Of a stretch of 64,000 nt of DNA, positions 16,297 to 33,168 are shown one piece after another; position 1 is the stretch's first letter, and every line of letters begins with the position of its first letter. A program made the translations under genes and the position numbers. The stretch spans positions 322,646 to 386,645 of the forward strand of contig JAXHVD010000001.1 of assembly GCA_034189385.1 (NCBI GenBank), written 5' to 3'. Source of the stretch: Thermodesulfobacteriota bacterium. Lineage in GTDB: Bacteria; Desulfobacterota; Desulfobacteria; Desulfobacterales; C00003060. The notes beneath the pieces were generated by a model. The model searched no databases. It had not been told where the DNA came from and saw only the letters and a program-made list of their open reading frames with translations.

Positions 16297-19200
16297 CTAT
16301 TCAGGATAGTGATATCCTAAATCTACTATTCCAGCATCGCCCACCCTATCTGTCCTGGTGGTCTTGACATCCAGACCAAGTTCTGCAGCCGTTTTACTCC
16401 CTGCGTTTACACAGGGACTATTGGCATCTTGCCCGGCAGCCCGCTGGCTCAGAAAATAGTCGCCATTCTTTTCCGATGCAACAGCGGCAAACAAGGGATC
16501 TTTAGAAAAATCTTTGTCTCCAGCGACACAGCCGGCATATTCCTTGTCATTATTCCAAACGTTGTTGTGGTCGATGATCATGGTCGCTCCGGGTGCTGGG
16601 AATAACTCCGTCCCAGTATAGTTGGCAATTCCCGCCACCTTGTTGTTGGTAACAATGTTATCTTCCACGATGGCATCAAAATCCCCAGAGTAAGGCCAGC
16701 CAAAGATCAACCCTCCGCCTCTATCCTGCTTATCGTCGCGGTGATTGTTCGAGTCAATAGTATTGTTTGAGATGATGATCTTGCTAAGATTAAAGGACGT
16801 GACGCTGATCCCACCTTGGTGGTTGTTAATGATGAGATTGTTGTTGATGATGATGTCCTCTCCAGCAAACCTTCGTATGGTAGCCATGGGGCTGATCACA
16901 ATGCCAAAAACGTTGTCAAAGATGTGGTTCCCGTCAACACGTGGAGAAGCCACTTCCCGTGCCCCGATTCCGATTCTATTTCCGTAGATATAGTTTTCCT
17001 TGATTCGAGGTGCTGCAAGTCCCCTGCAACCTACACCAACGACGCGGTTGTTGTAAATATGGTTATTGAAGATATGGGCCGTGCTCCCCCTTCCGTTGCC
17101 AATGCCTATCATGTTCTCGTAGATCTCATTATTGTATATCTTTGTCTTGCCGCTCAGTATTTCCCTGCCATGGACCCCTATGGCATTGTGGTGATTGCGA
17201 GTAATCTTGTTGTTTGAAATAGTAGGCGAAGAATCCCATGCATTGATGCCGTGCCCCATGGGTCCCTTCCCGCCTCCTGTGATGATAAACCCTTCTATTT
17301 TACCGGCCCTATCACCAAGGTAGGGCACCATAATGGTGTTTACGTTTCCTTCTTGGCTTCCTCCGTCTATGGTGGGCCATCCTATGCCTATCAAGTTCAC
17401 ATTCTTGTCCATCACGATGGTTTCTTGGTAAATGCCTTTCTGGACCAGGATGTCGTCGCCTGGGTTCGCAGCATCCACTGCCGATTGCATGGTAGGATAC
17501 TCCTCTGGGACCCGTCTTTTGCCGTCAACTGCGTTGTGTTTCGTGCTGACATAAGCGGTGTCAGGACTGCTGTCTGTCTTCCCGTCACTTACGACCAGCT
17601 TCAACTCGTAGCAGCCCAATGCATCTACCGAAAGCGTGGGGCTCACGGCATTGGGATCTGAGAGGGCGGCCTGGCTTCCAGAAGGCCTAAAAGTGAGTTG
17701 CCACTTGTAACTGAGAGCATCACCGTCGGGGTCCTTACTGCCGCCTCCAAAGAGGGTCACCACATCACCCACATAGACGTTAGATATGAATTCTCCAGCA
17801 TTGGCTGTCGGGGGGTGATTGCCCAGAGTACCAATTCTGACGGTGTGGGGATCACCGGATGCGCCCCACCTGTCTTTTACTGTGAGTTGCACGACGTAGT
17901 CGCCCTGGACATCCACTGTAAAGGCTGGGTTCGCCGTTTTAGGATCAGAAAGCTTCGCCTGGCTTGTTAGCGGTCGGGAGATGAACGCCCATCGATAGGA
18001 TATGGCATCTCCATTGGGATCTGCGCTATGGCTGCCATCGAGGATGACGTTATCGCCTACATATACGCTTTGTGCCGGACCGGCGTGGGCTTGGGGAGGA
18101 TCATTCGGCCCTTTTTCTTCAGGCATGGCAAACGGTCCGCCATAGGCCCCCATATCATTTACTGACGAGCCTAAAGAAGCAGGGAAGTGCACATCGTCAA
18201 ACTCTGGACTGGGATCTCCCCTATCAATGGCCGGGGAGGCCGGTCGCAAATGATAGTCATGATGTGTCGCATCCACATACAGTGGATCGGCAATGATGTC
18301 GTTGTGTTTTAAGAAGCTCTTCTCGTCTTCAAACCCCCCATATTGGCGCCGAATGCACCAAAGGTAATGGGGGGCACAGTTGCCCGTTCTGTTATTAGAA
18401 AAGAGCAAGTTATAGGAATATCCCTCTCCGGAAGCCCGGATTCCAGCATCCTCATTATGGGTAATGATATTATTCTTTATGTCAGGCACAGCAGAGGGAT
18501 CCTCCACCACAATGCCCGACCGACCATTGGCCACCACCGTATTGTTGATCACGTCAAGGGGCGTAATGACGCACCTGATGCCGGCCGACTTGTTCTCATA
18601 GAGAATGTTGTTGGATATGGTCCCTGTGGCCGCCTTGGCCTCAATACCCGCTAGGGAGTTGTTGTGTATGATGTTGTTTAGGACCTCAAATGTAGAGGTC
18701 ACCATTCCCCCAGTGGCAATTCCGGCCATTCCATTTTCCCTGATGGTATTGCCTTTGATCTTCAGTGAGCACCCGTTTTCCAGGTAGATCCCCGCCTCTT
18801 CATTCTTTCTGATGAGATTATGGGCTATGATGGCAGAACTGCCGCCACAGTAGATGCCTGCAGGGGCATTTGCCTCTATGATATTGTTCCTTATGGTAGG
18901 AGACGTTGACTTGCAGTACACGCCTGCGCCTGAGCTAACTGTGGCCCCCGCGCCTTCAACGCGGGTGCCATTTACGATGGTAAAGCCGTCCAATGTGGCA
19001 TCGTCAGCGCCATATACGACCCATCCGCCCTTTTTTCTCCCATCTATGGTCGATATATATATGGATGTGTCTCGTTGCGAAAAATTGTCATTCCAACCCC
19101 CTTCTAACGTCACGCCCTTCTTCAACGTGATGTTCTCATAATACGTTCCCTGAGAGACCTGGACCGTGTCCCCCTTTGCCGCCGCATCCAAGGCTTCCTG

Positions 19201-19332
19201 AATGGTCCCATAGCCTTCTGGGACACGGATAGTGGCGGCCCAACACCGTTTTTCAAGGCCCAGTCCAGCTATCCATACTAAAACACCTGCCATGATGACT
19301 GAAGGCAGATAACATTTTCTCACGGTTTTCAT
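16297..19332 (-). CDS. Beta-helix / two PKD-like / beta-helix secreted protein
   Basis: Two VPExYxTxQ.A.DAA..GD beta-helix modules flanking two AxAG..V.L.G..S.DPxGD..SY.W PKD-like domains; start placed at ATG 19332 with RBS GGAGG. Confidence 0.85.
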   Translation of the reverse strand: MKTVRKCYLPSVIMAGVLVWIAGLGLEKRCWAATIRVPEGYGTIQEALDAAAKGDTVQVSQGTYYENITLKKGVTLEGGWNDNFSQRDTSIYISTIDGRKKGGWVVYGADDATLDGFTIVNGTRVEGAGATVSSGAGVYCKSTSPTIRNNIIEANAPAGIYCGGSSAIIAHNLIRKNEEAGIYLENGCSLKIKGNTIRENGMAGIATGGMVTSTFEVLNNIIHNNSLAGIEAKAATGTISNNILYENKSAGIRCVITPLDVINNTVVANGRSGIVVEDPSAVPDIKNNIITHNEDAGIRASGEGYSYNLLFSNNRTGNCAPHYLWCIRRQYGGFEDEKSFLKHNDIIADPLYVDATHHDYHLRPASPAIDRGDPSPEFDDVHFPASLGSSVNDMGAYGGPFAMPEEKGPNDPPQAHAGPAQSVYVGDNVILDGSHSADPNGDAISYRWAFISRPLTSQAKLSDPKTANPAFTVDVQGDYVVQLTVKDRWGASGDPHTVRIGTLGNHPPTANAGEFISNVYVGDVVTLFGGGSKDPDGDALSYKWQLTFRPSGSQAALSDPNAVSPTLSVDALGCYELKLVVSDGKTDSSPDTAYVSTKHNAVDGKRRVPEEYPTMQSAVDAANPGDDILVQKGIYQETIVMDKNVNLIGIGWPTIDGGSQEGNVNTIMVPYLGDRAGKIEGFIITGGGKGPMGHGINAWDSSPTISNNKITRNHHNAIGVHGREILSGKTKIYNNEIYENMIGIGNGRGSTAHIFNNHIYNNRVVGVGCRGLAAPRIKENYIYGNRIGIGAREVASPRVDGNHIFDNVFGIVISPMATIRRFAGEDIIINNNLIINNHQGGISVTSFNLSKIIISNNTIDSNNHRDDKQDRGGGLIFGWPYSGDFDAIVEDNIVTNNKVAGIANYTGTELFPAPGATMIIDHNNVWNNDKEYAGCVAGDKDFSKDPLFAAVASEKNGDYFLSQRAAGQDANSPCVNAGSKTAAELGLDVKTTRTDRVGDAGIVDLGYHYPE

Positions 19333-19339
19333 TACGCTT

Positions 19340-20413
19340 TTACCCTCCTGAATATGCTTTGGGTCCGCCGTATGCACCCATATCGTTCTTTGATCCGTCC
19401 GGATCATGATAGATCGGGTCAGGATTGCCAGTGTCTCTGCATGGGGACGCTGGCCTCAAGCGAAAATCGCCGTCCTTTGGGTTTACAAAGAGTGGATCAG
19501 CAGAGATATTCCCATTCAGGCCCCTGAAGCTACCGTCGCCTATGTCTGAATGATCGGGTCTGGAGGAAGGATTAAACAGCCCTGAATAGAGGTCATCCTC
19601 ATTGTTCCACAGAATCGTATTGATAATCCTCACAGAGCCTTTGTCAAAGAACAGCCCCCCTCCATGAGAGGCGGAATTCGCCGTAATCGTATTATTGATG
19701 ATCGTACAGGCCGACCGGTCACAAGAAATTCCACCACCTGATTTTCCCTGGTTTTCCCATATGCAGTTGTTAGTGATGCGGGGAGACCCCTTGTAGCAAA
19801 AGATGCCACCGCCGGCATTAGATGCCTCATTTCCTACTATCTTGTTGTTGCTGATGTTCGGTGAGGCCCTGTACGAGGCAATGCCTCCTCCAAACCTAGT
19901 AGCCTTGTTTCTCGATATAACATTGTTCGTGATGATGGGAGAAGAGTAAGGAGCACAATGGACCCCACCGCCAACGACTGCGCCATTTTCGGTAATGATG
20001 TTGTTCGTGATGGTGGGAGAGGATGAAGGAGCACAATAGACCCCCCCACCTTCAAGGCTTTGGGTAGCCTTATCGTCCATGGTCTTGATGGTAAATCCAT
20101 CGATAACGGAGTGAGAGTTTTCTACAAAGGTGATCACAGGACTGTTTCCCATTCCTTCAATGACGGTTTTTCGGGGTCCATGTGCACTTTTCAAGATGAT
20201 GGACTCTTTGCTGATCGTGATGTTCCCAGAGTAGAGCCGGTGTGTGCCTGACGCCACTATAATGGTGTCGCCAGGTTGAGCGGCGTGGATAGCCTCTTGC
20301 ATCGTCAAGTACTCATGGGGAACCCGAAGGGTGTTGGGCGAGGCATCGGTGGCAACCACCAACATGGAGACGATGGCCCACAGTGCCGTTTTAAACAAAG
20401 TCACCTTTTCCAC
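19340..20413 (-). CDS. Secreted beta-helix repeat protein
   Basis: GGGV/I.C...SP.ITNN repeats; DPLFV..DFRL..SPC.D.G...NDMGAYGGP tail. Confidence 0.85.
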   Translation of the reverse strand: MEKVTLFKTALWAIVSMLVVATDASPNTLRVPHEYLTMQEAIHAAQPGDTIIVASGTHRLYSGNITISKESIILKSAHGPRKTVIEGMGNSPVITFVENSHSVIDGFTIKTMDDKATQSLEGGGVYCAPSSSPTITNNIITENGAVVGGGVHCAPYSSPIITNNVISRNKATRFGGGIASYRASPNISNNKIVGNEASNAGGGIFCYKGSPRITNNCIWENQGKSGGGISCDRSACTIINNTITANSASHGGGLFFDKGSVRIINTILWNNEDDLYSGLFNPSSRPDHSDIGDGSFRGLNGNISADPLFVNPKDGDFRLRPASPCRDTGNPDPIYHDPDGSKNDMGAYGGPKAYSGG

Positions 20414-21579
20414 CCAACGAAATCCACGCCCGCCGTGAGATTGTCATAAATATGATTGCGCCTCATCATAGAGGCAGGGACATTTAACAGCCTTATTCCG
20501 GCAGTCAAATTGCCATGGATCTCATTATCCTCAATGATCGCTTCGTCCACGTTAAACAGGGATATGCCGGCCAGTGCGTTATCAAAAATCGTGTTGAACA
20601 TGATCTCAACCTTGTCTATCTTGGATGATAGAATGCCAGCCTTCAGGTTCCCGTATATCTTGTTATTCTCAATAACCGCCCTGATATTGGTCTCTGCGCC
20701 ACCGAGGCCCCTTAGACCAATACCGCCCCTTCTGTTATTGCATAGGATATTGTTCCGAATAATTAATGCCTGGTCCCGGGAATCCAGATTGATACCGCCA
20801 ATGCCGGCGTCATTTCTGGTACATAGGTTGTTCTCAATGATCGGGCGGGCATATTCTCTGATCCCAATACCCGGTGCCCCCGGATCTTTATCCGTGGCCC
20901 CGGGAAACCGATTGTCAAATATCTCATTATCGGCAATAAGGGCAGCAGAATTCGGCCCATTGGAGATTCCAGGGCCATGATTATCGTAAATGACATTGTT
21001 TCGAATAAGGGGGCTGGCCACTGTCTCAAGGGGTGGGCCCATCCCTATCCCCAAACCAGTGGATATCATGCCGCCCCAGCTGCGATTTTTTGCCACGATG
21101 TTGTTCACCACTTCAGGGGAACAACCTCGAATCTCGACTAAAAAGAGGTTGATGCCGGAGCGGTACTTGGGCATATTCACGATAGTGAATCCATCCAACC
21201 TCATGGGGGCCGTCGTGTCCTTGGGAAAGCTAATCAAATAGCCAGGGGCCTCGATGCCGGTGCCGTCAATGATGGTCCTGGCTGTCCTTTTGAGTATCTT
21301 CTTCTCTCCGGGGCCATCCACTAGGTCATTACCGTCGGTGCCTGCAAAGCTCACCAAGCTCACCCCTTCCGTGATCTCGATGCGCTCGTTGTATGTGCCC
21401 GCTTTCACATAGACCGTGTCCCCAAAGCGGGCTGCGTTCATGGCTTCTCCAATGGTGGCGTAATCTTCTGGTACGAAGATCTCCCCAGCCCAGGCTCCAT
21501 GGGTACTCCAGACTGTCAGAACCAGAAACAAAAAGCCCGTTTTGAGGTGCACAATCAACCGATTTCTTTCCATAATCAT
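20401..21579 (-). CDS. Secreted beta-helix repeat protein
   Basis: Signal peptide ending AWA, VPEDYATI.EAM.AA..GD start, NxIxxNxxAGI repeats. Start likely 21579 or 21573 (a TACTAT -10-like box lies just upstream), not 21795. Confidence 0.82.
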   Translation of the reverse strand: MIMERNRLIVHLKTGFLFLVLTVWSTHGAWAGEIFVPEDYATIGEAMNAARFGDTVYVKAGTYNERIEITEGVSLVSFAGTDGNDLVDGPGEKKILKRTARTIIDGTGIEAPGYLISFPKDTTAPMRLDGFTIVNMPKYRSGINLFLVEIRGCSPEVVNNIVAKNRSWGGMISTGLGIGMGPPLETVASPLIRNNVIYDNHGPGISNGPNSAALIADNEIFDNRFPGATDKDPGAPGIGIREYARPIIENNLCTRNDAGIGGINLDSRDQALIIRNNILCNNRRGGIGLRGLGGAETNIRAVIENNKIYGNLKAGILSSKIDKVEIMFNTIFDNALAGISLFNVDEAIIEDNEIHGNLTAGIRLLNVPASMMRRNHIYDNLTAGVDFVGWKR

Positions 21580-22003
21580 TAGTTTTTGATAGTAACATAC
21601 TTTCAGGGGTTGCGGCAAACACATTCTAGTAGCCATGGCCGTTTGCTCCCATGTCCAGCCCCCATTTGCGGAACATCCAGGCGTAGGACTGCCAGAGGCT
21701 TTTTTGCTCAAATTTCCACGCCAATTGAATAAAATAAGGCTCTCGTATAGCGATGTCAAAAGTCTTCGCCCATGGGAGTGAGGCCTTTTTGGCACAACTC
21801 CTTCTCACGTGACTCTGGAAGCTCTTTGATCCACCAGGGCGGACCGCTTAGTTCGACGGAGTGGGGAATGGGTAGCCCCAAAAACCCAACGTGGGCGTTC
21901 GGGCGCTTTAGGCAAGGCTCTCGGCGGGACGGTTGCCCTTTTTCTTGGCAGGAGGCGTGAAGAGGTCTCTTTACAGGTGTCAGGCGAGTTCCCGTCTAGC
22001 CCC

Positions 22004-22032
22004 TTGACAGGAAGGGGCTAACCTTGTATTCT
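22004..22032 (+). promoter_or_regulatory. Sigma-70 promoter of the metal ABC operon
   Basis: TTGACA-17-TATTCT; the -35 sits within the inverted repeat TAGCCCCTT-N6-AAGGGGCTA. Confidence 0.7.
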
Positions 22033-22042
22033 TACGTCAAAT

Positions 22043-22172
22043 TGAGCGGCTGAAGCCGCTTTTGTTCAGGGGCTGTCTAGGGGAAGAGTCCAACATACCG
22101 GAACGGTTCAATCGTGCTACGAAGGCACAGTGTCACGAGGAGGTGACGTGTTTCGTAGCTTTTTTGTTGAGA
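22043..22172 (+). ncRNA. Candidate cis-regulatory leader RNA (riboswitch/attenuator), copy 1
   Basis: Hairpin AGCGGC-TGAA-GCCGCT; CAACA..TGTTG pairing; AATCG; long stem GCTACGAA..TTCGTAGC plus T-run just before the SD; homologous to 26117..26234. Confidence 0.65.
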
Positions 22173-22182
22173 GGAGAGAGTA

Positions 22183-22857
22183 TTGGCTGAGGAAGTGGGG
22201 TACAGAGAGGTCCTTATTGCCCCCCTTGAGGCCCGCCGCGAGGCCATAGGCTTGCTAGGGGTCATCGTCCTGATTGCCCTGCTCATGGCTTTGCGCTTCT
22301 CCCTGCTTACCGGGACAACACCACAACAGGGCTTGAAGGCCTATCAGCGGCCCGACACTGTATTGACTGGCCAGCAGCCGCTTCTCTATCGAACCCTTTT
22401 GAGTGTTGTGGACGAGGTAGTGGACTTGCGCGATCAGGAGGGGGAGTGGCCGGCTGTAAAGGTCTTGGAAAGGGAACATATCCCCCCCTTTGACAAGAGC
22501 TTTTTGCCAGTGGCACTCAAGAGCTACGTCTGGTCCCGTCACGAGGGGAACTCCTGGGTGGACTACTTCGGTGAGAATCCCAAGCGGGCCGACGCGGATG
22601 CTGTTGCCCACGAACCCACCAGCTTCTTGTTGCGAATCATTGATCTTCACACGGAAAATCACCCCCATCCCCACCCTGGTATCGATTACGACCCGAATAT
22701 GCGATTTGCAGCCCAGGTCTGGACGTATCCGGCCAAACGCCCTTATCCTGGGGAACGCGTGGTGGAATTCGGCTGGAAATGGATCGTGGGCCCAAGTGAC
22801 CGTTCCTTATGGGCAAATCAGGAGATATCTGAAGCCCCTGGCGCCAAGAAGCCATAA
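22183..22857 (+). CDS. DUF6162 / FpvK-like membrane-anchored protein
   Basis: Single N-terminal TM, WP.V..L....IPPF motif, HPHPH; first gene before an FpvCDE-like ABC system. Confidence 0.65.
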   Translation: MAEEVGYREVLIAPLEARREAIGLLGVIVLIALLMALRFSLLTGTTPQQGLKAYQRPDTVLTGQQPLLYRTLLSVVDEVVDLRDQEGEWPAVKVLEREHIPPFDKSFLPVALKSYVWSRHEGNSWVDYFGENPKRADADAVAHEPTSFLLRIIDLHTENHPHPHPGIDYDPNMRFAAQVWTYPAKRPYPGERVVEFGWKWIVGPSDRSLWANQEISEAPGAKKP

Positions 22858-22895
22858 GGATTTTAGGGAAAGCTATGAGTCAACGGAGGTGACGA

Positions 22896-23822
22896 ATGAA
22901 TAGAAGAATTCTCTCAGTGCTACCATTAGTGCCCTTTCTGGTGGCCCTGGCGTTTCATGTCCATTCTGGAGAAGAAAAAAAGCTGAATGTTGGAGTGACA
23001 TTGCATCCCTATTACTCCTGGGCGAGCAACATTGTTGGTGACACGGCCGACGTCACGCCCATTATTCCCACGGATGCGGACCCCCATTCTTATCAGCCAA
23101 GGACACAGGACCTGGCTAATCTCAGAAATCTTGATGTTATTGTCATCAACGATGTAGGCCATGACGAATACATCAGACCCATGCTAAAGAGTGCAAGGCG
23201 TGAGGATCTGCACACCATCAATACCAGCATCGGTCTCCCATTGATTCCTATCTTCCAACAGACGTACGCCTTTGAAGGAGAGGCGGCCTCGGCTGTTGCA
23301 TACAACAGCCACACGTACATTGCCATCACGGGAGCCATTCAGCAGATCAACACCATTGCCCGGGAATTGAGCAAGCTTCGCCCCGGCTATGCTGACCTTT
23401 ACAAGAAAAATGCCCGTGCATACGCTAAACGTTTGAGGCGGATGCTGGCGGCGGCCTTGGAAAAGGTCAACGCCCTTGATACAAGCAAGGTGAGAATAGC
23501 CACGGTTCACGACGGCTACGCCTACCTTATGCAGGAACTGGGGCTGGAGGTTGCGGCGGTCATTCAGCCCCGGCATGGCATCGAGCCCAATCCGCGTCAG
23601 TTGCAGGACACCATCAACCGGATCAAAGGGGCGGGCGTAAACGTTCTTTTCACCGAACTCGACTACCAGAAGCGATACGTGGACATCATCTATGAGGAGA
23701 CGGGCTGTCGGATCTATCGTCTGTCTCATATCTCCCACGGCCCGTATACGGCGGACAAATTCGAGCGGGATATTCAGGGAAACCTGGATGACATCATAAA
23801 AGCGCTGACCGATGCAAAATGA
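22896..23822 (+). CDS. Metal ABC transporter substrate-binding protein (ZnuA/TroA fold, FpvC-like)
   Basis: GVTLHPYYS, DPHSY, NSHTY, TVHDGY, HGIEP, LSHIS motifs. Confidence 0.9.
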   Translation: MNRRILSVLPLVPFLVALAFHVHSGEEKKLNVGVTLHPYYSWASNIVGDTADVTPIIPTDADPHSYQPRTQDLANLRNLDVIVINDVGHDEYIRPMLKSARREDLHTINTSIGLPLIPIFQQTYAFEGEAASAVAYNSHTYIAITGAIQQINTIARELSKLRPGYADLYKKNARAYAKRLRRMLAAALEKVNALDTSKVRIATVHDGYAYLMQELGLEVAAVIQPRHGIEPNPRQLQDTINRIKGAGVNVLFTELDYQKRYVDIIYEETGCRIYRLSHISHGPYTADKFERDIQGNLDDIIKALTDAK

Positions 23823-24588
23823 GACACCCAAACAACAAGGGGCTGGCGCCACGGTAGCGCGGCCTCTTCTTGAGGTAAAGGGGCTCTCTGTCTCCTTAGG
23901 GGGGGATCAGATCTTAGATGACGTTAATCTGGAGGTCGCCTCGGGCAGCATTCATGCCCTCATTGGGCCCAATGGCGCCGGGAAAACCACGTTAATCCGG
24001 AGCCTTATGGGTGGCATGCCCCACCGGGGGACGATTCGCTTCCGTTTTCGCAAAAGCGGGCGTATCGGTTATGTACCCCAATTGTTGGAATTTGATCATT
24101 CCGTGCCCATCACTGTGGGCGATTTCATTACCATCATGCTGCAAGATTCTCCGGTCTTCATCACTGGTATTAAGAAAATGCGACCGCAAGTGCAGCAGAT
24201 ATTGGCAGCCACAGAAAGCGACCATTTGCTCGATCGGTTGATAGGCGGGTTGTCGGGTGGAGAGATTCGACGGGTCCTTCTGGCCCAGGCCCTTGCACCC
24301 TTGCCGGAGTTGCTCCTCTTGGACGAACCGGCCAGTAACGTGGATGAACAGGGTGCCTTGCTCTTTGAGGAGATCTTGTTGCGGCTTAAGGAGGAGCATG
24401 GTCTCACCATCCTGATGGTAGGGCACGACACGCGCATGATCCTGCGCCTTGCTGATATGGTAACCAGTGTCAACTGCAGAGTTACTTTTAGCGGGCCCCC
24501 GACAGAATTAGAGGATGAGGAAAGAATGGCTGGATTGTACAAGGCATCGTCTTCGCCTACTGCAACGAGATCAGGAGGGCCCCATTAG
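23812..24588 (+). CDS. Metal ABC transporter ATP-binding protein (FpvD/ZnuC-like)
   Basis: GPNGAGKT, IGYVPQ, LSGGE, LLLDEP. Confidence 0.92.
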   Translation: MQNETPKQQGAGATVARPLLEVKGLSVSLGGDQILDDVNLEVASGSIHALIGPNGAGKTTLIRSLMGGMPHRGTIRFRFRKSGRIGYVPQLLEFDHSVPITVGDFITIMLQDSPVFITGIKKMRPQVQQILAATESDHLLDRLIGGLSGGEIRRVLLAQALAPLPELLLLDEPASNVDEQGALLFEEILLRLKEEHGLTILMVGHDTRMILRLADMVTSVNCRVTFSGPPTELEDEERMAGLYKASSSPTATRSGGPH

Positions 24589-25481
24589 TGGATTGGTTGT
24601 ACGAGATCATCAGTGGCTGGGCTAAAGCCGGCTATTTGCCTGGTATTTTCGAGCACACCTTCATGATCCGCGGCATGCTGGCCGCCATGATTATTGGCCC
24701 TGTTCTTGGAGGGTTAGGTACGGTGGTCGTGACAAAGAAGCTTTCCTTCTTTACCCAGACCATTGGCAATGCCTCGCTCACCGGTGTGGCCCTGGGACTG
24801 CTTCTCGGCGAACCAGTGGAAGGGACTTACGCTGGGCTGTACGGCTTCTGCCTAGCGGTGGCGTTGGTAATGACCTTTGTCAAGAACCGGAGCCGCCTTT
24901 CCAATGACACGGTCATTGGTGTGGTGCTGGCCCAGGTGTTGGGTATCGGCATTATCATGCTCTTGCTGGTGACCAGCCAGTTTAATATCCACCAGGTGGA
25001 GGGGATTCTTTTTGGAAGCCTCATTACGCTCACGGATGGCGACCTCATCACCCTGGTTTTTTCGTCCCTCGTGGTAGCTGCAGTCTTTTGCATCACCTTT
25101 AACCGCACTATATTGGTAGCCTTTAATCCCGTTCTGGCCAATGCCCGTGGTCGGAATCCGGTCTTGTTGGAATATGTTTTTATTACGCTCATGACCACTG
25201 TGGTCGTGGCCAGCCTCAAGCTCATCGGTGCCTTGCTGGTCTTGGTCTTGATCGTGGTGCCGGCGGCTGGCGCGCAAAACATCGTGGGGAACTTGCGCCA
25301 GTTTTTGTGGGTAAGCATCGCCTTGTCCACTATCAGCACGGTGTCGGGATTATTCCTCTCAGCCCTGGTGCCTGTGCCTAGCGGTGCGGTCATTGTCCTT
25401 ACTTCCAGCATATTGTTTTACGCGACCTTGGTGATGAGGCCGTTGTTTGGCCGGAGTGCCGTCAGGCAGGGAGATGGATAA
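24588..25481 (+). CDS. Metal ABC transporter permease (ABC-3, FpvE/ZnuB-like)
   Basis: Multiple TM helices, IGPVLGGLGTVVV, ILFGS, IGALLV. Confidence 0.9.
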   Translation: MDWLYEIISGWAKAGYLPGIFEHTFMIRGMLAAMIIGPVLGGLGTVVVTKKLSFFTQTIGNASLTGVALGLLLGEPVEGTYAGLYGFCLAVALVMTFVKNRSRLSNDTVIGVVLAQVLGIGIIMLLLVTSQFNIHQVEGILFGSLITLTDGDLITLVFSSLVVAAVFCITFNRTILVAFNPVLANARGRNPVLLEYVFITLMTTVVVASLKLIGALLVLVLIVVPAAGAQNIVGNLRQFLWVSIALSTISTVSGLFLSALVPVPSGAVIVLTSSILFYATLVMRPLFGRSAVRQGDG

Positions 25482-25569
25482 GACCTGTGGCGGCCTTTCA
25501 GGACGCGCAGCATTGGACAGCGAGAATGATATGAAATAGGGATTACTAGGATAATTAGGAGGTTATATC

Positions 25570-25980
25570 ATGAGGTGCAAAGTGAGACGATGGATCCATG
25601 ATGGCAACAGGTGGGTTACTACTTTTGGCATCGGTTTGATGATGGTGGCCTCTGCAGCCCTTGCCTATGCCCATGCCGCTGTATTGTGGGCTTACGTGGA
25701 GAACAACCACGTCTATGTGGAGGCCTTCTTCATGGGCGGTGACAAGATCAAGAACGGGCGTCTCATCGTAGTGGACTCAAACGGGAAGAAGCTACTGGAG
25801 GGAAAAACCGATGAAGAAGGAAAATTCGATTTTGCCCCTCCAGCGATGGACGATATGACCATTCTCTTGAGACTTGACAAGGCCCACGGCTCCGAGTTCA
25901 CCATAAAAAAAGAGGATTTTCAGCAAGACCAGGAGTGCCCAGAACAACCAGCCAAGTCGCCAGCCAAGCCCCCCAAGTAG
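25570..25980 (+). CDS. Small periplasmic protein with N-terminal His after the signal peptide (NikL/CbiL- or FpvJ-like domain)
   Basis: AYA|H, LLEGKTDEEGKFDF; similar to the N-domain of 28992..29675. Confidence 0.75.
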   Translation: MRCKVRRWIHDGNRWVTTFGIGLMMVASAALAYAHAAVLWAYVENNHVYVEAFFMGGDKIKNGRLIVVDSNGKKLLEGKTDEEGKFDFAPPAMDDMTILLRLDKAHGSEFTIKKEDFQQDQECPEQPAKSPAKPPK

Positions 25981-26116
25981 AGGGTGGTTGATTCTTGTGC
26001 CAGTGAGAAGGGACGTCTCGTTGCCTACCCAACTGTTACTGGGTCACACCGCAGAGAGATGGGTCTCTTTTCTGTTGACACCGGGGTCGGGTTTTGTGTT
26101 AGGTAGGAGGCTACAA

Positions 26117-26234
26117 TGGGGGCTGAAGCTCCTGATCGCTGGTCAAGGAACCCCAACAATTCACATGAAAATCGAGCCATGAAGGTTTCAGGTCTGCAGA
26201 AGGGACCGATGTTCGTGGCTTTTTTTGTTGGGGA
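26117..26234 (+). ncRNA. Candidate cis-regulatory leader RNA, copy 2
   Basis: GGGGC-TGAA-GCTCC hairpin; CCCCAACAA..TTGTTGGGG; AATCG; AGCCATGAA..TTCGTGGCT plus T-run; TTGACA at 26075 at nearly the same spacing as in copy 1. Confidence 0.65.
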
Positions 26235-26254: not shown

Positions 26255-27028
26255 ATGATGAAGAGAGAAATGATGAGTTGTTTTCTGGTGGTGATTGCCC
26301 TCATGATGGCAGTTCCGGCCCTTGCCCATTACGGCATGGTTATTCCTTCGGATCAAATGGTCATGCAGGGAGAAGAGAGGGAAGTGGAATTGAATCTTCT
26401 GTTCTGGCACCCTTTTGAGGGCCACGGCATGGAATTGGTCAAACCGGCCGCCTTTGGCGTCGTTGCCAATGGCGAGAAGCAAGATCTGCTGGGTGCTTTA
26501 GAGTCTACGAAGACAAAGGGGCATCAGACTTGGGCCGCCACTTACAAGATCAAGCGGCCTGGGGTGTATGTTTTCTATATGGAACCGCAGCCTTACTGGG
26601 AGCCGGCGGAGGACTGTTTCATCGTCCATTACACAAAGGCTGTGGTAACCGCCTTTGGGGATGACGAAGGATGGGACGAGGAGATTGGCCTGAAGACAGA
26701 GATCGTTCCCCTTTCCAAACCTTATGGCCTGTATGCCGGCAATGTGTTTCAGGGGATTGTGAAGCTGGATGGCAAGCCTGTGCCCTATTCTGAGGTGGAG
26801 GTGGAGTATTATAATGAGGATGGCAAGTGCCATGCCCCCACTGATTACATGGTGACCCAGACCGTCAAGGCCGATGCCAACGGTGTCTTCACCTATGCCG
26901 CGCCCACGGCCGGCTGGTGGGGTTTTGCCGCTCTAAACACCTCAGATGCCAAAAAGAAACACGATGGCGAGGAGAAAGACATAGAGCTGGGGGCGGTCCT
27001 TTGGGTCCAGTTTCACGACATGAAATAG
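26255..27028 (+). CDS. DUF4198 periplasmic protein (NikK-like nickel/cobalt uptake component)
   Basis: [59 protein letters not shown]. Confidence 0.85.
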
Positions 27029-27104
27029 TAACTAAGGGCTTTACCCGGTGTCAGAAGACACGGGAGATCTATAAAACAGGAGGAAGGTTAAAAGGAGGAA
27101 AGAG

Positions 27105-28199
27105 ATGAAGAAACCGGTTTGGAGGCTCGTTGGGGTGCTTTGTGTTTTGGGACTATTTGCCGTTGTCAACAGTGGCCACGCCATGCAGGAGCATGTGGGA
27201 GAAGTGCTTTCCGACATCCACTTTAGTGGCTTGATCGAAGTGGGTGGAGCCTGGCAGGATTTTGACTATGATGAGGGCGGTAGTGATGACGCCAGTGATC
27301 TTTGTCTGACGACGTTGGAACTGGAGGCGGAGGCAGAGATAAACGAGTGGGTCAGTGTGGCTGCATTGCTCTTGTATGAAGACGCCACTTCTTTTGAGGG
27401 AGAAAACGATGAAACAGATGTAGACATAGAAGAGGCCACGGTGACCATTGGCAATCCTGACGAATATCCTTATTACCTCACTGCGGGCAAGATGGTTGTC
27501 CCCTTTGGGGCGCTGTTTACACACTTCCCAGATGATCCTCTCATGGATGTGCCTGTAACCCTGGTAATGGGGGAGACGATTGAGAAGGCTGTCCTGGTGG
27601 GCGCAACGTGTCCATTAGGGTTTACGCTGTCCGGTTATGTGTTCAGCGGAGATGTGGATGAGGACGAAGACAACAATGTAGAGAGTTATGGCTTGGACGT
27701 GAACTATGCCATGGAGGATGAAGAGGGTCTGGATCTGTTGATCGGCGCCTCTTACATATCCAACATCGCGGACTCAGACGTTATCGAGGAGACCCTCGAA
27801 CACCATGGCGTGGAGGAGATCGAGGATTACGTGGATGGCTTTGATCTCTATTTTCTCGCCGACTGGGCCGGTTTCTTTCTGGGTGCTGAGTACATGACCG
27901 CCCTGGATGATTTTGACCACGACGAGTTGCATACAGCCGGCGGTGATGGCGCTGAGCCAGAGGTATGGAACATCGAGGCCGGCTATAATCTGGAATGGGG
28001 CAGGAATCTAGAAATCGCCTTGAAGTACGCTGGTTCTGATGAAGCGGAGGGTTTGGATATTCCTGAGGACCGATATGGGCTTTGTCTGAACCAAGAGATT
28101 TGGGAGGGCGTTGTGGGCTCCGTCGCATACCTTCATGATGAATATGAGAATGATGATGAGAGGGACGTGCTGTACGGACAGATCGCAGTAGAATTCTAG
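27105..28199 (+). CDS. Outer-membrane porin (LbtU-family-like), very acidic
   Basis: Signal peptide, SGLIEV, LLYE, AGK..VPFG, GASYISNIADSD, C-terminal AVEF. Confidence 0.75.
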   Translation: MKKPVWRLVGVLCVLGLFAVVNSGHAMQEHVGEVLSDIHFSGLIEVGGAWQDFDYDEGGSDDASDLCLTTLELEAEAEINEWVSVAALLLYEDATSFEGENDETDVDIEEATVTIGNPDEYPYYLTAGKMVVPFGALFTHFPDDPLMDVPVTLVMGETIEKAVLVGATCPLGFTLSGYVFSGDVDEDEDNNVESYGLDVNYAMEDEEGLDLLIGASYISNIADSDVIEETLEHHGVEEIEDYVDGFDLYFLADWAGFFLGAEYMTALDDFDHDELHTAGGDGAEPEVWNIEAGYNLEWGRNLEIALKYAGSDEAEGLDIPEDRYGLCLNQEIWEGVVGSVAYLHDEYENDDERDVLYGQIAVEF

Positions 28200-28250
28200 T
28201 AGAACAGAAGGCAGATTGTCCAAAGTGTGAAGGACAACTCCCAGTGGTGC

Positions 28251-28296
28251 TGCCCCCACCTGCGCTTTTTTCATCAGAGAGCGCAGGGTGGGGGCA
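28251..28296 (+). other. Intergenic stem-loop between the porin and cbiM (mRNA stabiliser or partial terminator)
   Basis: TGCCCCCACCTGCGCT...AGCGCAGGGTGGGGGCA. Confidence 0.55.
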
Positions 28297-28387
28297 AGGC
28301 GCTTAAAGAGGGAGGAAATGTCCGTTACATCAGGGTTCTTTCCAAATCATCCAGCGCGGTGATTGCAGGAGAGGGAGTCATCCCAGC

Positions 28388-29014
28388 ATGCATATTTCAG
28401 AGGGTGTGCTATCACCAACTGTTCTCATTGCAGGTGCAGCGCTTACAACAGCAGGTGTTGCTGCGGGGCTTAGGAAACTGGATAACAGGGAGATTCCTTC
28501 TACAGGGATACTGTCGGCTGCTTTCTTTGTAGCTTCGCTCGTTCATGTGCCTATCGGACCTGCTTCCGTCCACCTGGTCATGAACGGCTTACTCGGGCTC
28601 ATCTTGGGGTGGAAGGCCTTTCCTGCGATCTTGGTAGGCTTGGGCCTTCAGACCCTCCTTTTTCAGTATGGCGGCCTTACCAGTCTTGGTGTGAATACCC
28701 TGAACATGGCCCTTCCAGCGGTCATATGTTACTACGTGTTTGGCTGGGCCGTGAGAACCCGAACCAGCATCTTCGTGTTCACCGGCATGGCCTTCGGGTG
28801 TGCTTTTTGTGCTGTCCTCATCAGTGGTATCATGGTCGGGTTTTCCCTGTACTTGACAGGAGAAGCCTTCTTGCCTGCAGCAAAGGTCGTGGTAGTAGCC
28901 CATCTCCCCATCATGGTCATTGAAGGGATTTTAACGGCAGCCTGTGCCCTCTTTTTGAGGAGAGTAAAACCTGAATTATTGGAGGGACTCTATGTGCCAG
29001 AGCCCATTTCGTGA
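28388..29014 (+). CDS. cbiM: Co/Ni ECF transporter substrate component CbiM/NikM
   Basis: N-terminal MHISEG, AAFFVASLVHVPIGPASVHL, GGLTSLGVN. Confidence 0.92.
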   Translation: MHISEGVLSPTVLIAGAALTTAGVAAGLRKLDNREIPSTGILSAAFFVASLVHVPIGPASVHLVMNGLLGLILGWKAFPAILVGLGLQTLLFQYGGLTSLGVNTLNMALPAVICYYVFGWAVRTRTSIFVFTGMAFGCAFCAVLISGIMVGFSLYLTGEAFLPAAKVVVVAHLPIMVIEGILTAACALFLRRVKPELLEGLYVPEPIS

Positions 29015-29675
29015 GTCTAACCGGACCTGTTGCAGAGAGGTGGTTGTTTGTTTCCTCTTGGTAGTCCTGGGGCTTGGTTTTGGCGTTTTTCCCGCGTGGG
29101 CCCATAAGGTTACTATCTTTGCCTGGGTAGAGGGAGACACGGTCTACACGCAGAGCAAGTTCAGCGGCGGCAAGAAAGTCAAAAGGGGCACAATCGTGGT
29201 CTACGACAAGGAAGGAAATCAGCTTCTGGAGGGCAAGACCGATGATAAGGGTGCGTTCTCGTTTAAGGTGCCCAAGAAGACGACCCTCAAGATTGCGTTG
29301 AAGGCCTCCATGGGCCACTTTGCGGAGTGGACTATCCCTGAGAAGGAAATTGCGGGAGTGGCTGATAGTGCTGGAAGCAGGACCAGGGGAGGTGATGTTC
29401 AGGCTCCCACCCCGCAGGCTCCATCCTTGACGGAGCAAAAGGCCACCGATGAGGATGCTGGTGCCAAGGTTGTGGGTTTAAGCCGCGAAGAGATCCAAAC
29501 ACTCATCGATGGATCGCTGGACAGGAAGCTTGCGCCCGTTCTCACCATGCTTTCCGAGGCCGTGGATTCCGGCCCCAGGATGAGCGACGTGATTGGCGGT
29601 ATCGGCTATATCGTCGGTCTAGTGGGGGTGGGTCTCTATTTTACGGCCCGTGATAAAAGGAAAGACGCCAGGTGA
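28992..29675 (+). CDS. CbiL/NikL-like accessory component
   Basis: AWA|HKVTIFAWVEG, ASMGH, C-terminal TM DVIGGIGYIVGL. Confidence 0.8.
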   Translation: MCQSPFRESNRTCCREVVVCFLLVVLGLGFGVFPAWAHKVTIFAWVEGDTVYTQSKFSGGKKVKRGTIVVYDKEGNQLLEGKTDDKGAFSFKVPKKTTLKIALKASMGHFAEWTIPEKEIAGVADSAGSRTRGGDVQAPTPQAPSLTEQKATDEDAGAKVVGLSREEIQTLIDGSLDRKLAPVLTMLSEAVDSGPRMSDVIGGIGYIVGLVGVGLYFTARDKRKDAR

Positions 29676-30430
29676 TCAGAGAGGGATTTGTCCTCCGGAA
29701 TTCTGTGATTCACCGCCTTGATCCCCGCGTCAAGATGGTCCTTGTCTTTGTTTTTTCCGTTCTAGTGGCTATATCAAACCAGTTTTCCGTTCTCACCTTG
29801 GCCTTGGCGCTGGGGCTCTTTGCGACGCTCCTGGCCCGGATACCATTGGCGGAACTGATTCGCCGTCTTGTCCCTGTAAACCTCTTCATCCTCTTCCTGT
29901 GGGTCTTCCTTCCCTTTAGCGTGGAAGGCCGACCGCTTTTGTCCATTGGTCCGTTGGTTGGAACCCACGAGGGGGTGCTGTATGCGCTTCAGATTACCGT
30001 CAAGTCAAACGCCATCGTGGCCATGTTGATTACGCTGGTCGCTTCAACATCTATCCTTACGATGGGCCATGCCATGCACGAACTGAGAGTCCCCCAGAGA
30101 ATCGTCCACCTCTTTTTTTTCACCTATCGGTATGTCCATGTTATACGTAGGGAGTACCTCCGGCTGGTGAGCGCCATGAAAGTGCGGGGCTTTCGTGCCG
30201 GGACCAATATGCACACGTACAAGAGCATTGCCTACCTGGTGGGCATGCTCTTGGTGAGGAGTTCAGAACGAGCAGAAAGGGTACAAAAGGCCATGCTGTG
30301 CCGCGGATTCAGGGGGCAGCTTTACAGTCTTAGCGCATTCTCCGTGAAAAAGGGGGATGTGGTCTCCACTATTGTGATGTTTGCGTTTTTTCTCGTGTTG
30401 GCCATATTAGAGTGGACGGAAATAGCTTGA
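29672..30430 (+). CDS. cbiQ: Co/Ni ECF transporter T component
   Basis: HRLDPRVK, FTYRY, MKVRGF, AMLCRGF. Confidence 0.92.
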   Translation: MIREGFVLRNSVIHRLDPRVKMVLVFVFSVLVAISNQFSVLTLALALGLFATLLARIPLAELIRRLVPVNLFILFLWVFLPFSVEGRPLLSIGPLVGTHEGVLYALQITVKSNAIVAMLITLVASTSILTMGHAMHELRVPQRIVHLFFFTYRYVHVIRREYLRLVSAMKVRGFRAGTNMHTYKSIAYLVGMLLVRSSERAERVQKAMLCRGFRGQLYSLSAFSVKKGDVVSTIVMFAFFLVLAILEWTEIA

Positions 30431-31140
30431 TGATTGATCTTAAGGATATATCCTTTGGGTATCCGGGGGGCACCTTAGTCCTTGACCAACTCAACCTGTC
30501 ATTGCGGGCAGGTGACCGAACCGGCTTGATGGGAGCCAACGGAAGTGGAAAAACCACGCTGTTTCATATCATCATGGGCCTTTTGAAACCTTCTGAAGGC
30601 AGCATCGAGATATTTGGCAAGCCGGTGAGGACAGAAAAAGACTTTGAAGAAGTACGTCAAAGAGTGGGACTCCTTTTTCAGGATGCCGACGATCAGCTTT
30701 TCAGCCCAACAGTCTTGGAGGACGTTGCCTTCGGACCCTTGAATCTGGGCAAGTCAAAAGAGGAGGCCAAGACCATTGCCCAGAATACACTCATGTCGCT
30801 GGGTTTGACCGGGTTCGAAGACAGGGTGACCCACAAGCTGTCTGGAGGAGAAAAAAGACTTGTTTCACTTGCCACGGTCCTTGCCATGGAACCTGAGGTA
30901 TTGCTCCTTGATGAACCGACTACAGGTTTAGATCACGCAACGGAAAAGAGGCTTATTGAGATTCTGAAGGGCCTTGACCTCTCTTACATCCTTATTTCTC
31001 ACAGCATGGACTTCCTCATGGAGACGAGCCAGACCATCATGTGTATCCGGGATGGCAAAGTGCTTCTTGATGACGAGAGTATCCCCCACACCCATGTTCA
31101 CGTCCACCGACATGGGCGTTACGTCCACCGACATGATTGA
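30430..31140 (+). CDS. cbiO: Co/Ni ECF transporter ATPase with His-rich tail
   Basis: GANGSGKT, FQDADDQLF, LSGGEK, LLDEP; tail HTHVHVHRHGRYVHRH. Confidence 0.9.
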   Translation: MIDLKDISFGYPGGTLVLDQLNLSLRAGDRTGLMGANGSGKTTLFHIIMGLLKPSEGSIEIFGKPVRTEKDFEEVRQRVGLLFQDADDQLFSPTVLEDVAFGPLNLGKSKEEAKTIAQNTLMSLGLTGFEDRVTHKLSGGEKRLVSLATVLAMEPEVLLLDEPTTGLDHATEKRLIEILKGLDLSYILISHSMDFLMETSQTIMCIRDGKVLLDDESIPHTHVHVHRHGRYVHRHD

Positions 31141-32343: not shown

Positions 32344-33168
32344 ATGATGCAGCGTCTGTTTTTTTACCTTGCGTCGTTTTCGTTGGGTGCTTTTCACGCA
32401 CTGGAACCAGGTCATGGAAAAACGGTAGTTGCCGCCTATTTGGTTGGCTCCAGAGGGCGGAAAGCTGATGCCGTATTTCTTGGGATTATTGTGACGGTCA
32501 CCCATACCCTGAGCATCATCGTTTTGGCTGTCATAGCCAAGGTGGCCTCTGTTAAATGGGCGTTGAGCGACGATGCCTTGCACGGATATGTTGGCCTGGT
32601 GGCCGGTGCTCTCATCCTTGTAGTGGGATTGTGGATGTTAGTGGCGAGATTGAGGGGCAAGGAGCCCCTGCACTTCCATTCGCATGACCACGATGTCCTT
32701 GAGAGAGGGGGGCATCATCATGAACACAGTCACCACGGCGCTGACAACTTCCGCTTTCATTCTCATGACGAGGGCCATTCTCATGATCATGACCATTCAC
32801 ATAAGCATGAGGGGCACCATATCGATTTGGAACCAGAAAGGAAAGTGGGCTATTGGCAGCTTTTTCTGTTAGGCATTTCTGGAGGACTGGTGCCCTGCCC
32901 AGCCGCTATGGCGTTATTGCTGGCGGGGATAGGGTCTGGCAGGGTGGGCGAGGCGCTTTGGCTTGTCCTGTTGTTTAGTCTGGGGCTGGCAGCGGCGCTG
33001 GTAGCCATAGGGCTGGCAGTGGTAACTGCAAGTCACTTTGCCAGCCGTTTTCTTGATGCAAAGAGGTTTGCAAGGAAGATGGCCATTGCCAGCGCAGGTC
33101 TCATCACCGTGATAGGAATGGGAACCATATTTGGTTCAGTGAGGCACATCGTTTCAGTCCCTTTTTAG
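32344..33168 (+). CDS. RcnA-like His-rich Ni/Co transporter (NiCoT/HoxN-HupN-NixA superfamily)
   Basis: HALEPGHGKT, His-rich loop, GGLVPCPAA. Confidence 0.85.
   Translation: MMQRLFFYLASFSLGAFHALEPGHGKTVVAAYLVGSRGRKADAVFLGIIVTVTHTLSIIVLAVIAKVASVKWALSDDALHGYVGLVAGALILVVGLWMLVARLRGKEPLHFHSHDHDVLERGGHHHEHSHHGADNFRFHSHDEGHSHDHDHSHKHEGHHIDLEPERKVGYWQLFLLGISGGLVPCPAAMALLLAGIGSGRVGEALWLVLLFSLGLAAALVAIGLAVVTASHFASRFLDAKRFARKMAIASAGLITVIGMGTIFGSVRHIVSVPF

What the first reader, a model, noticed from the sequence alone, without database searches (positions are those of the whole stretch)
22043..26234. Twin structured leader RNAs ahead of two metal-uptake operons: candidate unrecognised metal riboswitch or attenuator
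Seen: 22043-22172 and 26117-26234 share an ordered architecture despite divergent sequence. Each has a 5' hairpin GGC-UGAA-GCY, then CCAACA, a small variable hairpin (ACCG-GAA-CGGU vs UUCA-CA-UGAA), AAUCG, a long stem (GCUACGAA/UUCGUAGC vs GCCAUGAA/UUCGUGGC, with a U-A to C-G compensatory change and different but still pairing inner arms), a U-run, and UGUUG that can pair back with CAACA. The GGCTGAAG core lies 44 and 46 nt after the start of a TTGACA, and each element ends just upstream of the first gene's SD. One precedes the FpvKCDE-like ABC operon, the other DUF4198-porin-cbiMLQO. Knowledge: I do not see the consensus of cobalamin, NiCo (czcD), yybP-ykoY, M-box or Moco riboswitches. Inference: a terminator-containing cis element sensing a metal (Ni/Co/Zn) or metallocofactor, or bound by an antiterminator protein.
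Basis: partly seen in the sequence, partly recalled or inferred. Interest (0 to 1): 0.86.

Follow-up and report, generated by a model that had tools for sequence, protein, structure and literature searches.

The report
GAA-hairpin attenuator before nickel-uptake operons
The two look-alike leaders are copies of a widespread, apparently undescribed RNA stop-or-go signal in front of nickel-import genes of anaerobic bacteria that mostly lack the usual nickel repressor, and it is probably read by an uncharacterised protein (DUF3842) rather than binding the metal itself.

Summary
Both leaders are real, have no Rfam match and belong to one conserved family. What is conserved: promoter, a covarying hairpin with a (A)NGAA loop at +5, a variable A-rich linker, then CCAYGAAGG, which is both the 5' arm of an intrinsic terminator and a second small GAA-loop hairpin. 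Copies precede nikK/nikM, NikA-like, TonB and FmdE genes. In a draw of 131 phylum genomes, 22 had the element; all 22 carry DUF3842 and 3 carry NikR. DUF3842, usually with nickel-binding CooT, is often itself the first gene behind an element. Best reading: protein-dependent antitermination that works like ANTAR but is not ANTAR, probably replacing NikR. RNA binding, the metal and the direction are inferred, not shown. The scan noted this family before on three other genomes.

The parts
22004..22032 (+). sigma70-type promoter of copy 1 (TTGACA-17-TATTCT)
   Evidence: 10 of 12 matches; mean 0.0 in 50 shuffles
22044..22061 (+). copy 1 P1 hairpin, loop UGAA closed by C-G, about 5 nt after the inferred start site
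   Evidence: covariation in homologs
22062..22115 (+). copy 1 linker (holds CCAACA and AATCG; not conserved in the family)
22116..22126 (+). copy 1 P2 (GCU-ACGAA-GGC): alternative 3-bp hairpin inside the terminator's 5' arm
   Evidence: forcing it costs 6.8 kcal/mol
22116..22165 (+). copy 1 intrinsic terminator with inner hairpin 22132-22147 (loop lacks GAAG here) and U-run
   Evidence: (-22.2 kcal/mol)
22183..25980 (+). operon 1: DUF6162-like gene, ZnuA-family binding protein, ATPase, ABC-3 permease, NikL-family gene
26075..26080 (+). -35 box of copy 2 (no consensus -10 found)
26118..26133 (+). copy 2 P1 hairpin, loop UGAA closed by C-G
26176..26186 (+). copy 2 P2 (GCC-AUGAA-GGU) inside the terminator's 5' arm
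   Evidence: forcing it costs 7.4 kcal/mol
26176..26226 (+). copy 2 intrinsic terminator with inner hairpin 26191-26207 (loop holds AGAAG, a third GAA site) and U-run
   Evidence: (-22.7 kcal/mol)
26255..31140 (+). operon 2: DUF4198 (nikK-like), LbtU porin, nikM/cbiM, nikL, nikQ/cbiQ, nikO/cbiO
   Evidence: nikKMLQO layout as in PMC545781

Best explanation
Each leader is a transcription attenuator that is off by default. RNA polymerase makes hairpin P1 (loop (A)NGAA), a flexible A-rich spacer, and then CCAYGAAGG. Left alone, CCAYGAAGG pairs into a strong terminator (supported by covariation and folding). When nickel is scarce, an oligomeric protein binds the GAA loops of P1 and of the weak alternative hairpin P2 (a third loop often lies just behind). 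That holds the terminator's 5' arm away, so the uptake operon is read through (inferred). Nickel is probably sensed by its usual neighbour CooT or through a partner or cofactor, since DUF3842 has no invariant Cys or His (inferred, weakest step). The system fills the role that NikR has in other members of the phylum.
For: Family: 20 of 26 close DUF4198 orthologs had the terminator motif by regular expression and 3 more by eye; 1 lacked upstream DNA, 2 lacked the motif; 0 of 3 distant paralogs had it. Structure: in the 18 protein-guided rows 10 of 12 predicted pairs have a both-sided change. In 84 rows 94.6% of cells pair against 82.1% in shuffles. The GAAGG of the 5' arm stays fixed while its terminator partners pair in only 55-72 of 84 rows. 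P2's outer pair is AU 34, GC 29, GU 16, unpaired 5. Divergent leaders outside the training set keep the loop on other 5-6 bp stems. GAAG lies in the inner hairpin in 34 of 84 rows, shuffle mean 6.9, max 15. Targets: first genes behind 80 hits were DUF4198 39, TonB receptor 8, CbiM 6, ABC binding protein/permease 4, porin 4, methyltransferase 4, ECF-S 2, FmdE 1, DUF3842 1, NikL-like 1, other or none 10. One copy heads a unit with an [FeFe] hydrogenase, the nickel-free enzyme that NikR is predicted to control in Desulfovibrio (PMC545781). Profile: of 57 order-level genomes, 37 have element and DUF3842, 0 element only, 11 DUF3842 only, 9 neither; NikR in 1 of 57, element-negative. Of 131 phylum genomes, element 22, all with DUF3842 (50 have it); NikR 64, with element 3, with DUF3842 8. 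Upstream of 28 nikK orthologs: GAA hairpins in 12 of 20 DUF3842 genomes and 0 of 8 NikR-only genomes; NikR-operator-like sites in 0 of 20 and 3 of 8. DUF3842 is the first gene behind an element in several genomes; two show element-DUF3842-cooT-element-nik operon. K/R is conserved at DUF3842 positions 19, 22, 46, 51 and 100 in 27-34 of 34 rows. This genome has DUF3842 and CooT, no NikR, and five cobalamin riboswitches elsewhere, none here.
Against: No binding, read-through or metal response was measured. DUF3842 folds as a generic Rossmann-like domain (nearest UbiX/HFCD and USP by Foldseek, TM about 0.45; best Z 9.1) with no RNA-binding relative among the top hits. 28 of 50 DUF3842 genomes in the phylum draw and 11 of 48 in the order draw had no model hit. 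Some are misses (G018, G318; variants), but a looser terminator pattern found nothing in 4 of 5 retested. Single DUF3842 copies often sit among housekeeping genes (parB-like, ispH-like, trpA), so it may have another job. 3 of 22 element genomes also have NikR. Genomes are related, so the Fisher values overstate. 66 of the 84 alignment rows came from a pattern that fixes the GAAG positions and were picked for a paired P1. Some variants show no U-run terminator (G276, G349, G381). A few targets are cobalt-linked (CobN). CooT was not found in six element-bearing Bacillota genomes, so it cannot be the only sensor.
Confidence: 0.6

Rival explanations
1. Same attenuator, but the reader is another protein (CooT, or one not found here). 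DUF3842 is only a co-regulated nickel-handling protein.
For: CooT follows DUF3842 in most order-level genomes and is in 49 of 57; it binds Ni with Kd 9 nM as a dimer (PMC6006190). That it has an Sm-like fold and was once named a predicted RNA-binding protein is recalled, not checked. DUF3842 shows no RNA-binding fold. No genome-wide profile over all protein families was run.
Against: CooT was not found in 7 of 23 pattern-picked genomes, six of them with the element, while DUF3842 was found in all seven. CooT also occurs in two control methanogens and in CODH operons. DUF3842 is anti-correlated with NikR (8 of 50), which suits a regulator better than a chaperone. One other neighbour, a His-containing helical protein, was absent from 5 of 5 genomes tested.
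Confidence: 0.2
2. A true riboswitch: the GAA loops dock around Ni2+/Co2+ or a metabolite with no protein.
For: Riboswitch-like position between promoter and SD, a terminator, tandem copies in some loci, no Rfam match.
Against: About 15 conserved nucleotides in repeated hairpin loops, separated by a 20-55 nt A-rich linker without conserved structure. The terminator is the default fold; the only alternative (P2) costs a median 10 kcal/mol. A ligand that stabilised P2 would switch uptake genes on at high metal, the wrong direction. 0 of 59 element-positive genome entries in two draws lacked DUF3842 (37 + 22; three genomes are in both draws).
Confidence: 0.1
3. The mechanism is as described but the signal is cobalt, or divalent metal shortage in general, not nickel.
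For: Pfam and NCBIfam call the transporter CbiM/CbiQ/CbiO; operon 1 is a ZnuA/MntA-type ABC system; CobN follows one copy, CbiK and FeoB lie near others.
Against: The nikK-nikM-nikL-nikQ-nikO layout is the NikR-controlled type in PMC545781. NikA-like proteins, CooT and an [FeFe] hydrogenase are among the targets. The element is nearly exclusive with NikR. B12 uptake in this genome already has cobalamin riboswitches.
Confidence: 0.12
4. An ordinary ANTAR target read by the genome's GAF-ANTAR protein.
For: Two hairpins, the second overlapping a terminator; ANTAR found in 34 of 48 genomes tested, most of them element-bearing.
Against: Loops have 4 or 5 nt, not A1/G4 hexaloops. A 20-nt longer linker abolishes EutV antitermination (PMC8934654). 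ANTAR is missing from element-bearing genomes of 93-97% completeness (G210, G173, G224, G229). The own ANTAR gene lies directly upstream of a gene with its own hexaloop-terminator leader (read by eye), and Bacillota carriers have a different, receiver-type ANTAR.
Confidence: 0.04

Closest known systems
ANTAR dual-hairpin antitermination leaders (EutV, AmiR, NasR/NasT targets; PMC8934654)
   Same: Stable first hairpin, weak 3-bp second hairpin buried in the 5' arm of an intrinsic terminator, repeated purine-rich loops suited to an oligomeric protein, default off.
   Different: Loops NGAA/ANGAA, not A1/G4 hexaloops; linker 20-55 nt or more; often a third loop; tracks DUF3842, not ANTAR; targets are nickel-uptake genes.
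NikR regulon of Desulfovibrio, Geobacter, Desulfotalea (PMC545781)
   Same: Same targets: nikK, nikMLQO and a nickel-free hydrogenase.
   Different: NikR is a DNA-binding repressor at GTGTTAC-N13/14-GTAACAC; here control lies in the RNA after the start site, in genomes that mostly lack NikR.
NiCo (czcD) riboswitch and other metal riboswitches (yybP-ykoY, M-box)
   Same: Metal-linked cis RNA with a terminator.
   Different: No Rfam match; no conserved multi-helix junction. NiCo turns export genes on at high metal (recalled), while this element precedes import genes.
Other protein-read attenuators: BglG/LicT, HutP, PyrR, TRAP (recalled, not tested)
   Same: Protein decides between terminator and read-through; the regulator gene is often in its own regulon.
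   Different: Different RNA motifs and folds; none is known to me as a transition-metal homeostasis switch.

Membership tests
ANTAR-target RNA | Two hexaloops with A1 and G4 | tested here: not met
   P1 loops NGAA (84 rows) or ANGAA; P2 loop AYGAA; definition
ANTAR-target RNA | Second hairpin overlaps the 5' arm of an intrinsic terminator | tested here: met
ANTAR-target RNA | Short, limited spacing between hairpins | tested here: not met
   linker 20-55 nt in 84 rows (upper end set by the pattern), longer in model hits; +20 nt abolishes EutV activity
ANTAR-target RNA | Cognate ANTAR protein in every carrier | tested here: inconclusive
   34 of 48 genomes; missing from four near-complete carriers; own ANTAR sits beside another target
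Rfam riboswitch classes (cobalamin, NiCo, yybP-ykoY, M-box, Moco and the other 4227 models) | Covariance-model match at gathering score | tested here: not met
   0 hits in the window; best match over an element E=3.2, 19.7 bits against a cut-off of 56.1; the cobalamin model finds 5 hits elsewhere in this genome
Riboswitch (any class) | Direct, selective ligand binding by RNA without protein | not testable with these tools
   needs in-line probing
NikR regulon | nikR gene in the genome | tested here: not met
   0 hits in G000, 90% complete; 1 of 80 genomes
NikR regulon | GTGTTAC-N13/14-GTAACAC operator at the promoter | tested here: not met
   0 of 20 nikK upstream regions in DUF3842 genomes, 3 of 8 in NikR-only genomes; not seen in the window by eye
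Protein-dependent transcription antiterminator system | Protein binds the leader and raises read-through | not testable with these tools
   only co-occurrence, gene position and a basic patch
Dispersed repeat or stand-alone terminator | No bias of position, orientation or downstream gene | tested here: not met
   70 of 80 first downstream genes fall in a few metal-uptake-linked classes, same strand

The most novel reading that the evidence does not exclude
Many anaerobes (most Desulfobacterales, other Desulfobacterota, some Nitrospirota and Bacillota) regulate nickel uptake with an RNA-binding antiterminator, DUF3842, that reads two or three GAA-loop hairpins and is switched off by nickel, passed on by CooT where present. 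This would be a metal-homeostasis regulator acting on nascent RNA, an alternative to NikR, with a Rossmann-like fold not known to bind RNA, and it would give CooT a sensing role outside CODH maturation.
Probability: 0.5. Interest if true: 0.9.

Novelty: new variant of a known kind. Interest (0 to 1): 0.8.

Why it matters
Sulfate reducers and other anaerobes depend on nickel enzymes, yet 79 of 80 genomes tested here at order level or picked by the motif had no NikR, so how they control nickel uptake is open. This element names a specific RNA site, a candidate reader (DUF3842) and a candidate sensor (CooT), all testable with short RNAs and two small proteins. The motif also marks TonB receptors, FmdE, methyltransferase and ECF genes as likely nickel-scavenging genes.

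Tried and rejected
ANTAR as reader: rejected. Leader peptide: an ATG mini-ORF in 12 of 84 leaders only. P1 loop pairing with the terminator's 3' arm: partner positions are not conserved. Complex prediction DUF3842 x2 + CooT x2: no verdict, score 0.11 against a mark of 0.32; no evidence either way. Sequence search of PDB with DUF3842: nothing below E=0.07; the Atlas gave only DUF3842 clusters; no known fold stood out. One RNA run with a 0.10 share: contigs only, no cover of either leader, uninformative. A terminator-pattern hit in DUF3842-negative G036 lies inside a coding ORF without P1 or U-run: chance. The first gene of operon 1 had no match in 36 genus genomes, so copy 1 has no orthologous leader among them. 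L112 (pattern hit before larB/larC-like genes) has an unpaired P1 and no model hit: not counted as support. Rows left out of the 84-row alignment: 14 of 80 pattern loci (10 with unpaired or short P1 or weak terminator, 4 near-duplicates), the 41 pattern hits that came with short flanks, and, of the protein-guided loci, one long-linker row, one duplicate and five not cut out by the regular expression. Paper search was swamped by the software name Coot.
Full report
Observation. Each lies between a TTGACA box and the SD of the first gene, starts with a hairpin closed on UGAA and ends in a stem of about -22 kcal/mol with a U-run. Copy 1 has a clear promoter; no -10 box was found for copy 2. Rfam gives 0 hits at gathering score in the window and nothing better than E=3.2 over the elements. 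Operon 1 encodes a DUF6162-like protein, a ZnuA-family ABC system and NikL. Operon 2 is DUF4198, an LbtU porin, CbiM/NikM, NikL, CbiQ and CbiO.

What is conserved. I fetched DUF4198 orthologs by protein search, without using the motif, and read their leaders. Of 26 close orthologs, 20 had the terminator motif by regular expression and 3 more by eye; 1 had no upstream DNA and 2 lacked it; 0 of 3 distant paralogs had it. The shared core is: TTGAC about 45 nt before a hairpin P1 with loop NGAA (sometimes ANGAA) closed by C-G; an A-rich linker; CCAYGAAGG; an inner hairpin; YGUGGY and a U-run. On these 18 protein-guided rows RNAalifold predicts P1 and the outer terminator stem, with both-sided changes in 10 of 12 pairs. 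CCAACA is in 1 and AATCG in 2 of 82 other linkers, so those parts of the original description are particular to the two window copies, perhaps from a local duplication (inference).

A second, hidden hairpin. I aligned 66 of the 80 with full flanks together with the 18 rows above (dropped rows are listed under Tried and rejected; the pattern fixes the GAAG positions, so invariance counts rest on the 18). P1 and the terminator pair in 94.6% of cells against 82.1% in shuffles. The GAAGG of the 5' arm does not vary, yet its terminator partners pair in only 55 to 72 of 84 rows, so it is kept for something else. It can fold as R-CC-AYGAA-GG-Y; the outer pair is AU 34, GC 29, GU 16, unpaired 5. In distant genomes outside the training set the same loop sits on unrelated 5-6 bp stems, which is independent support for P2. 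The inner hairpin holds GAAG in 34 of 84 rows against a shuffle mean of 6.9. Forcing P2 costs 6.8 and 7.4 kcal/mol in the window copies, median 10 over all rows: the terminator is the default.

Targets. First genes behind the 80 hits: DUF4198 39, TonB receptor 8, CbiM 6, ABC binding protein or permease 4, porin 4, methyltransferase 4, ECF-S 2, FmdE 1, DUF3842 1, NikL-like 1, other or none 10 (biased toward DUF4198, from which the pattern came). A covariance model found up to 8 copies per genome. In 40 fetched regions around further hits they precede TonB receptors, NikA-like systems, nikK/nikM, FmdE-like genes, exbBD-tonB, DUF3842, CobN and in one case an [FeFe] hydrogenase. PMC545781 (passages) defines nikK, nikL and nikMQO as a NikR-controlled nickel transporter in deltaproteobacteria and predicts NikR control of an iron-only hydrogenase. 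This genome has five cobalamin riboswitches elsewhere, at least three ahead of TonB or B12-type binding-protein genes by my reading of the ORFs. Nickel is therefore the best guess, cobalt second.

The trans factor. The genome (90% complete) has no NikR; NikR was in 1 of 80 genomes, and that one lacked the element. Clustering the genes near elements showed DUF3842 as the most widely shared neighbour across phyla that is neither a transport component nor a methyltransferase. Among 57 order-level genomes the table is 37 both, 0 element only, 11 DUF3842 only, 9 neither; DUF3842 is also in 22 of 23 pattern-picked genomes. In a phylum draw of 131: element 22, all with DUF3842 (50 have it); NikR 64, of which 3 have the element and 8 have DUF3842 (kin are not independent). 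Upstream of 28 nikK orthologs, GAA hairpins occur in 12 of 20 DUF3842 genomes and 0 of 8 NikR-only genomes, and NikR-operator-like sites in 0 of 20 and 3 of 8; several of the 8 negatives among the 20 have nikK inside an operon or at a contig edge. DUF3842 is often the first gene behind an element, and two genomes show element, DUF3842-cooT, element, nik operon. CooT follows DUF3842 in most order-level genomes and binds nickel with Kd 9 nM (PMC6006190, passages), but was not found in six element-bearing Bacillota genomes. DUF3842 models with pLDDT 94.9 as a Rossmann-like domain with no close or RNA-binding relative among the hits. It has a conserved glycine-rich loop and basic residues, and no invariant Cys or His. 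ANTAR was tested and set aside.

Mechanism. Shown by comparison: promoter-proximal position, P1, terminator, P2 as an alternative, target class, co-occurrence with DUF3842 and near-exclusion with NikR. Inferred: that a protein binds the GAA loops and blocks the terminator, that it is DUF3842, that nickel turns it off, and that CooT relays nickel. Uptake genes need read-through at low metal, and no RNA-only antiterminator competes with the terminator, which is why a protein active without metal fits better than a riboswitch. Against: no binding data, an uninformative fold, 28 of 50 DUF3842 genomes without a model hit (some are misses; 4 of 5 retested stayed negative), 3 carriers with NikR, and variants without a U-run.

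Literature. Full-text searches: DUF4198 + riboswitch 0 papers; DUF3842 1 unrelated paper; further searches listed nothing describing this motif (listings and abstract starts only). Term look-ups in the main texts of PMC6429828, PMC8632094, PMC11109978, PMC5737381 and 10.64898/2026.09.15.751765 found no nickel, cobalt or cbiM motif. PMC11672702 (first half held) and PMC11247825 were seen as passages. In PMC8040213 supplements, 8 files were searched and 2 were not; DUF3842 appears near three candidates, of which I saw two, each in a small minority of instances, and their sequences were not compared. The supplement of PMC11109978 could not be read, the supplements of the other motif surveys were not searched, and subscription papers are not in the library, so an earlier description cannot be excluded. 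Three earlier notes of this scan reached the same reading on other genomes; my own reading was written down before that look-up, and those notes are not independent evidence.

Verdict. A real, apparently undescribed attenuator family for nickel-uptake genes (about 0.9 that it is a regulatory leader of this kind; about 0.6 for DUF3842-dependent antitermination; 0.1 for a riboswitch). It works like an ANTAR leader but is not a member of that family. Novelty: new variant of a known kind. Interest 0.8.

Noticed in passing
window 21997-22020: A perfect 9-bp inverted repeat straddles the -35 box of copy 1's promoter; possibly a DNA operator adding a second control to operon 1.
   Followed up: no
window 32344-33168: RcnA-like, His-rich Ni/Co efflux gene just behind the uptake operon, without the element.
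   Followed up: partly
L043:1486-2214 (-) and L043 about 1250-1175 (-); G000:C16: The genome's only ANTAR protein (GAF-ANTAR) lies directly upstream of a glutamate-synthase-like gene (label from memory of the sequence type) whose leader has A1/G4 hexaloops and a terminator; the gene pair recurs in relatives.
   Followed up: partly
L280:1273-1695 (+); G000:C2: Here cooT is apart from DUF3842 and follows a 57-codon His-rich ORF that could bind nickel.
   Followed up: no
L314, L317, L322: Leaders with strong P1 and P2 GAA hairpins but no U-run terminator ahead of nikK: possibly a translational or Rho-dependent version.
   Followed up: partly
L227/L241, L238, L234, L294: Tandem copies of the element ahead of one operon.
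   Followed up: no
L220:6000-6839, L217:310-1260, L224:6973-7752: A 260-300 aa protein family without Pfam match recurs directly behind or within element-led units; one precedes an [FeFe] hydrogenase.
   Followed up: partly
window 16297-21795 (-): Three consecutive genes with beta-helix (NosD-like, shown for the first) repeats divergent from operon 1.
   Followed up: no
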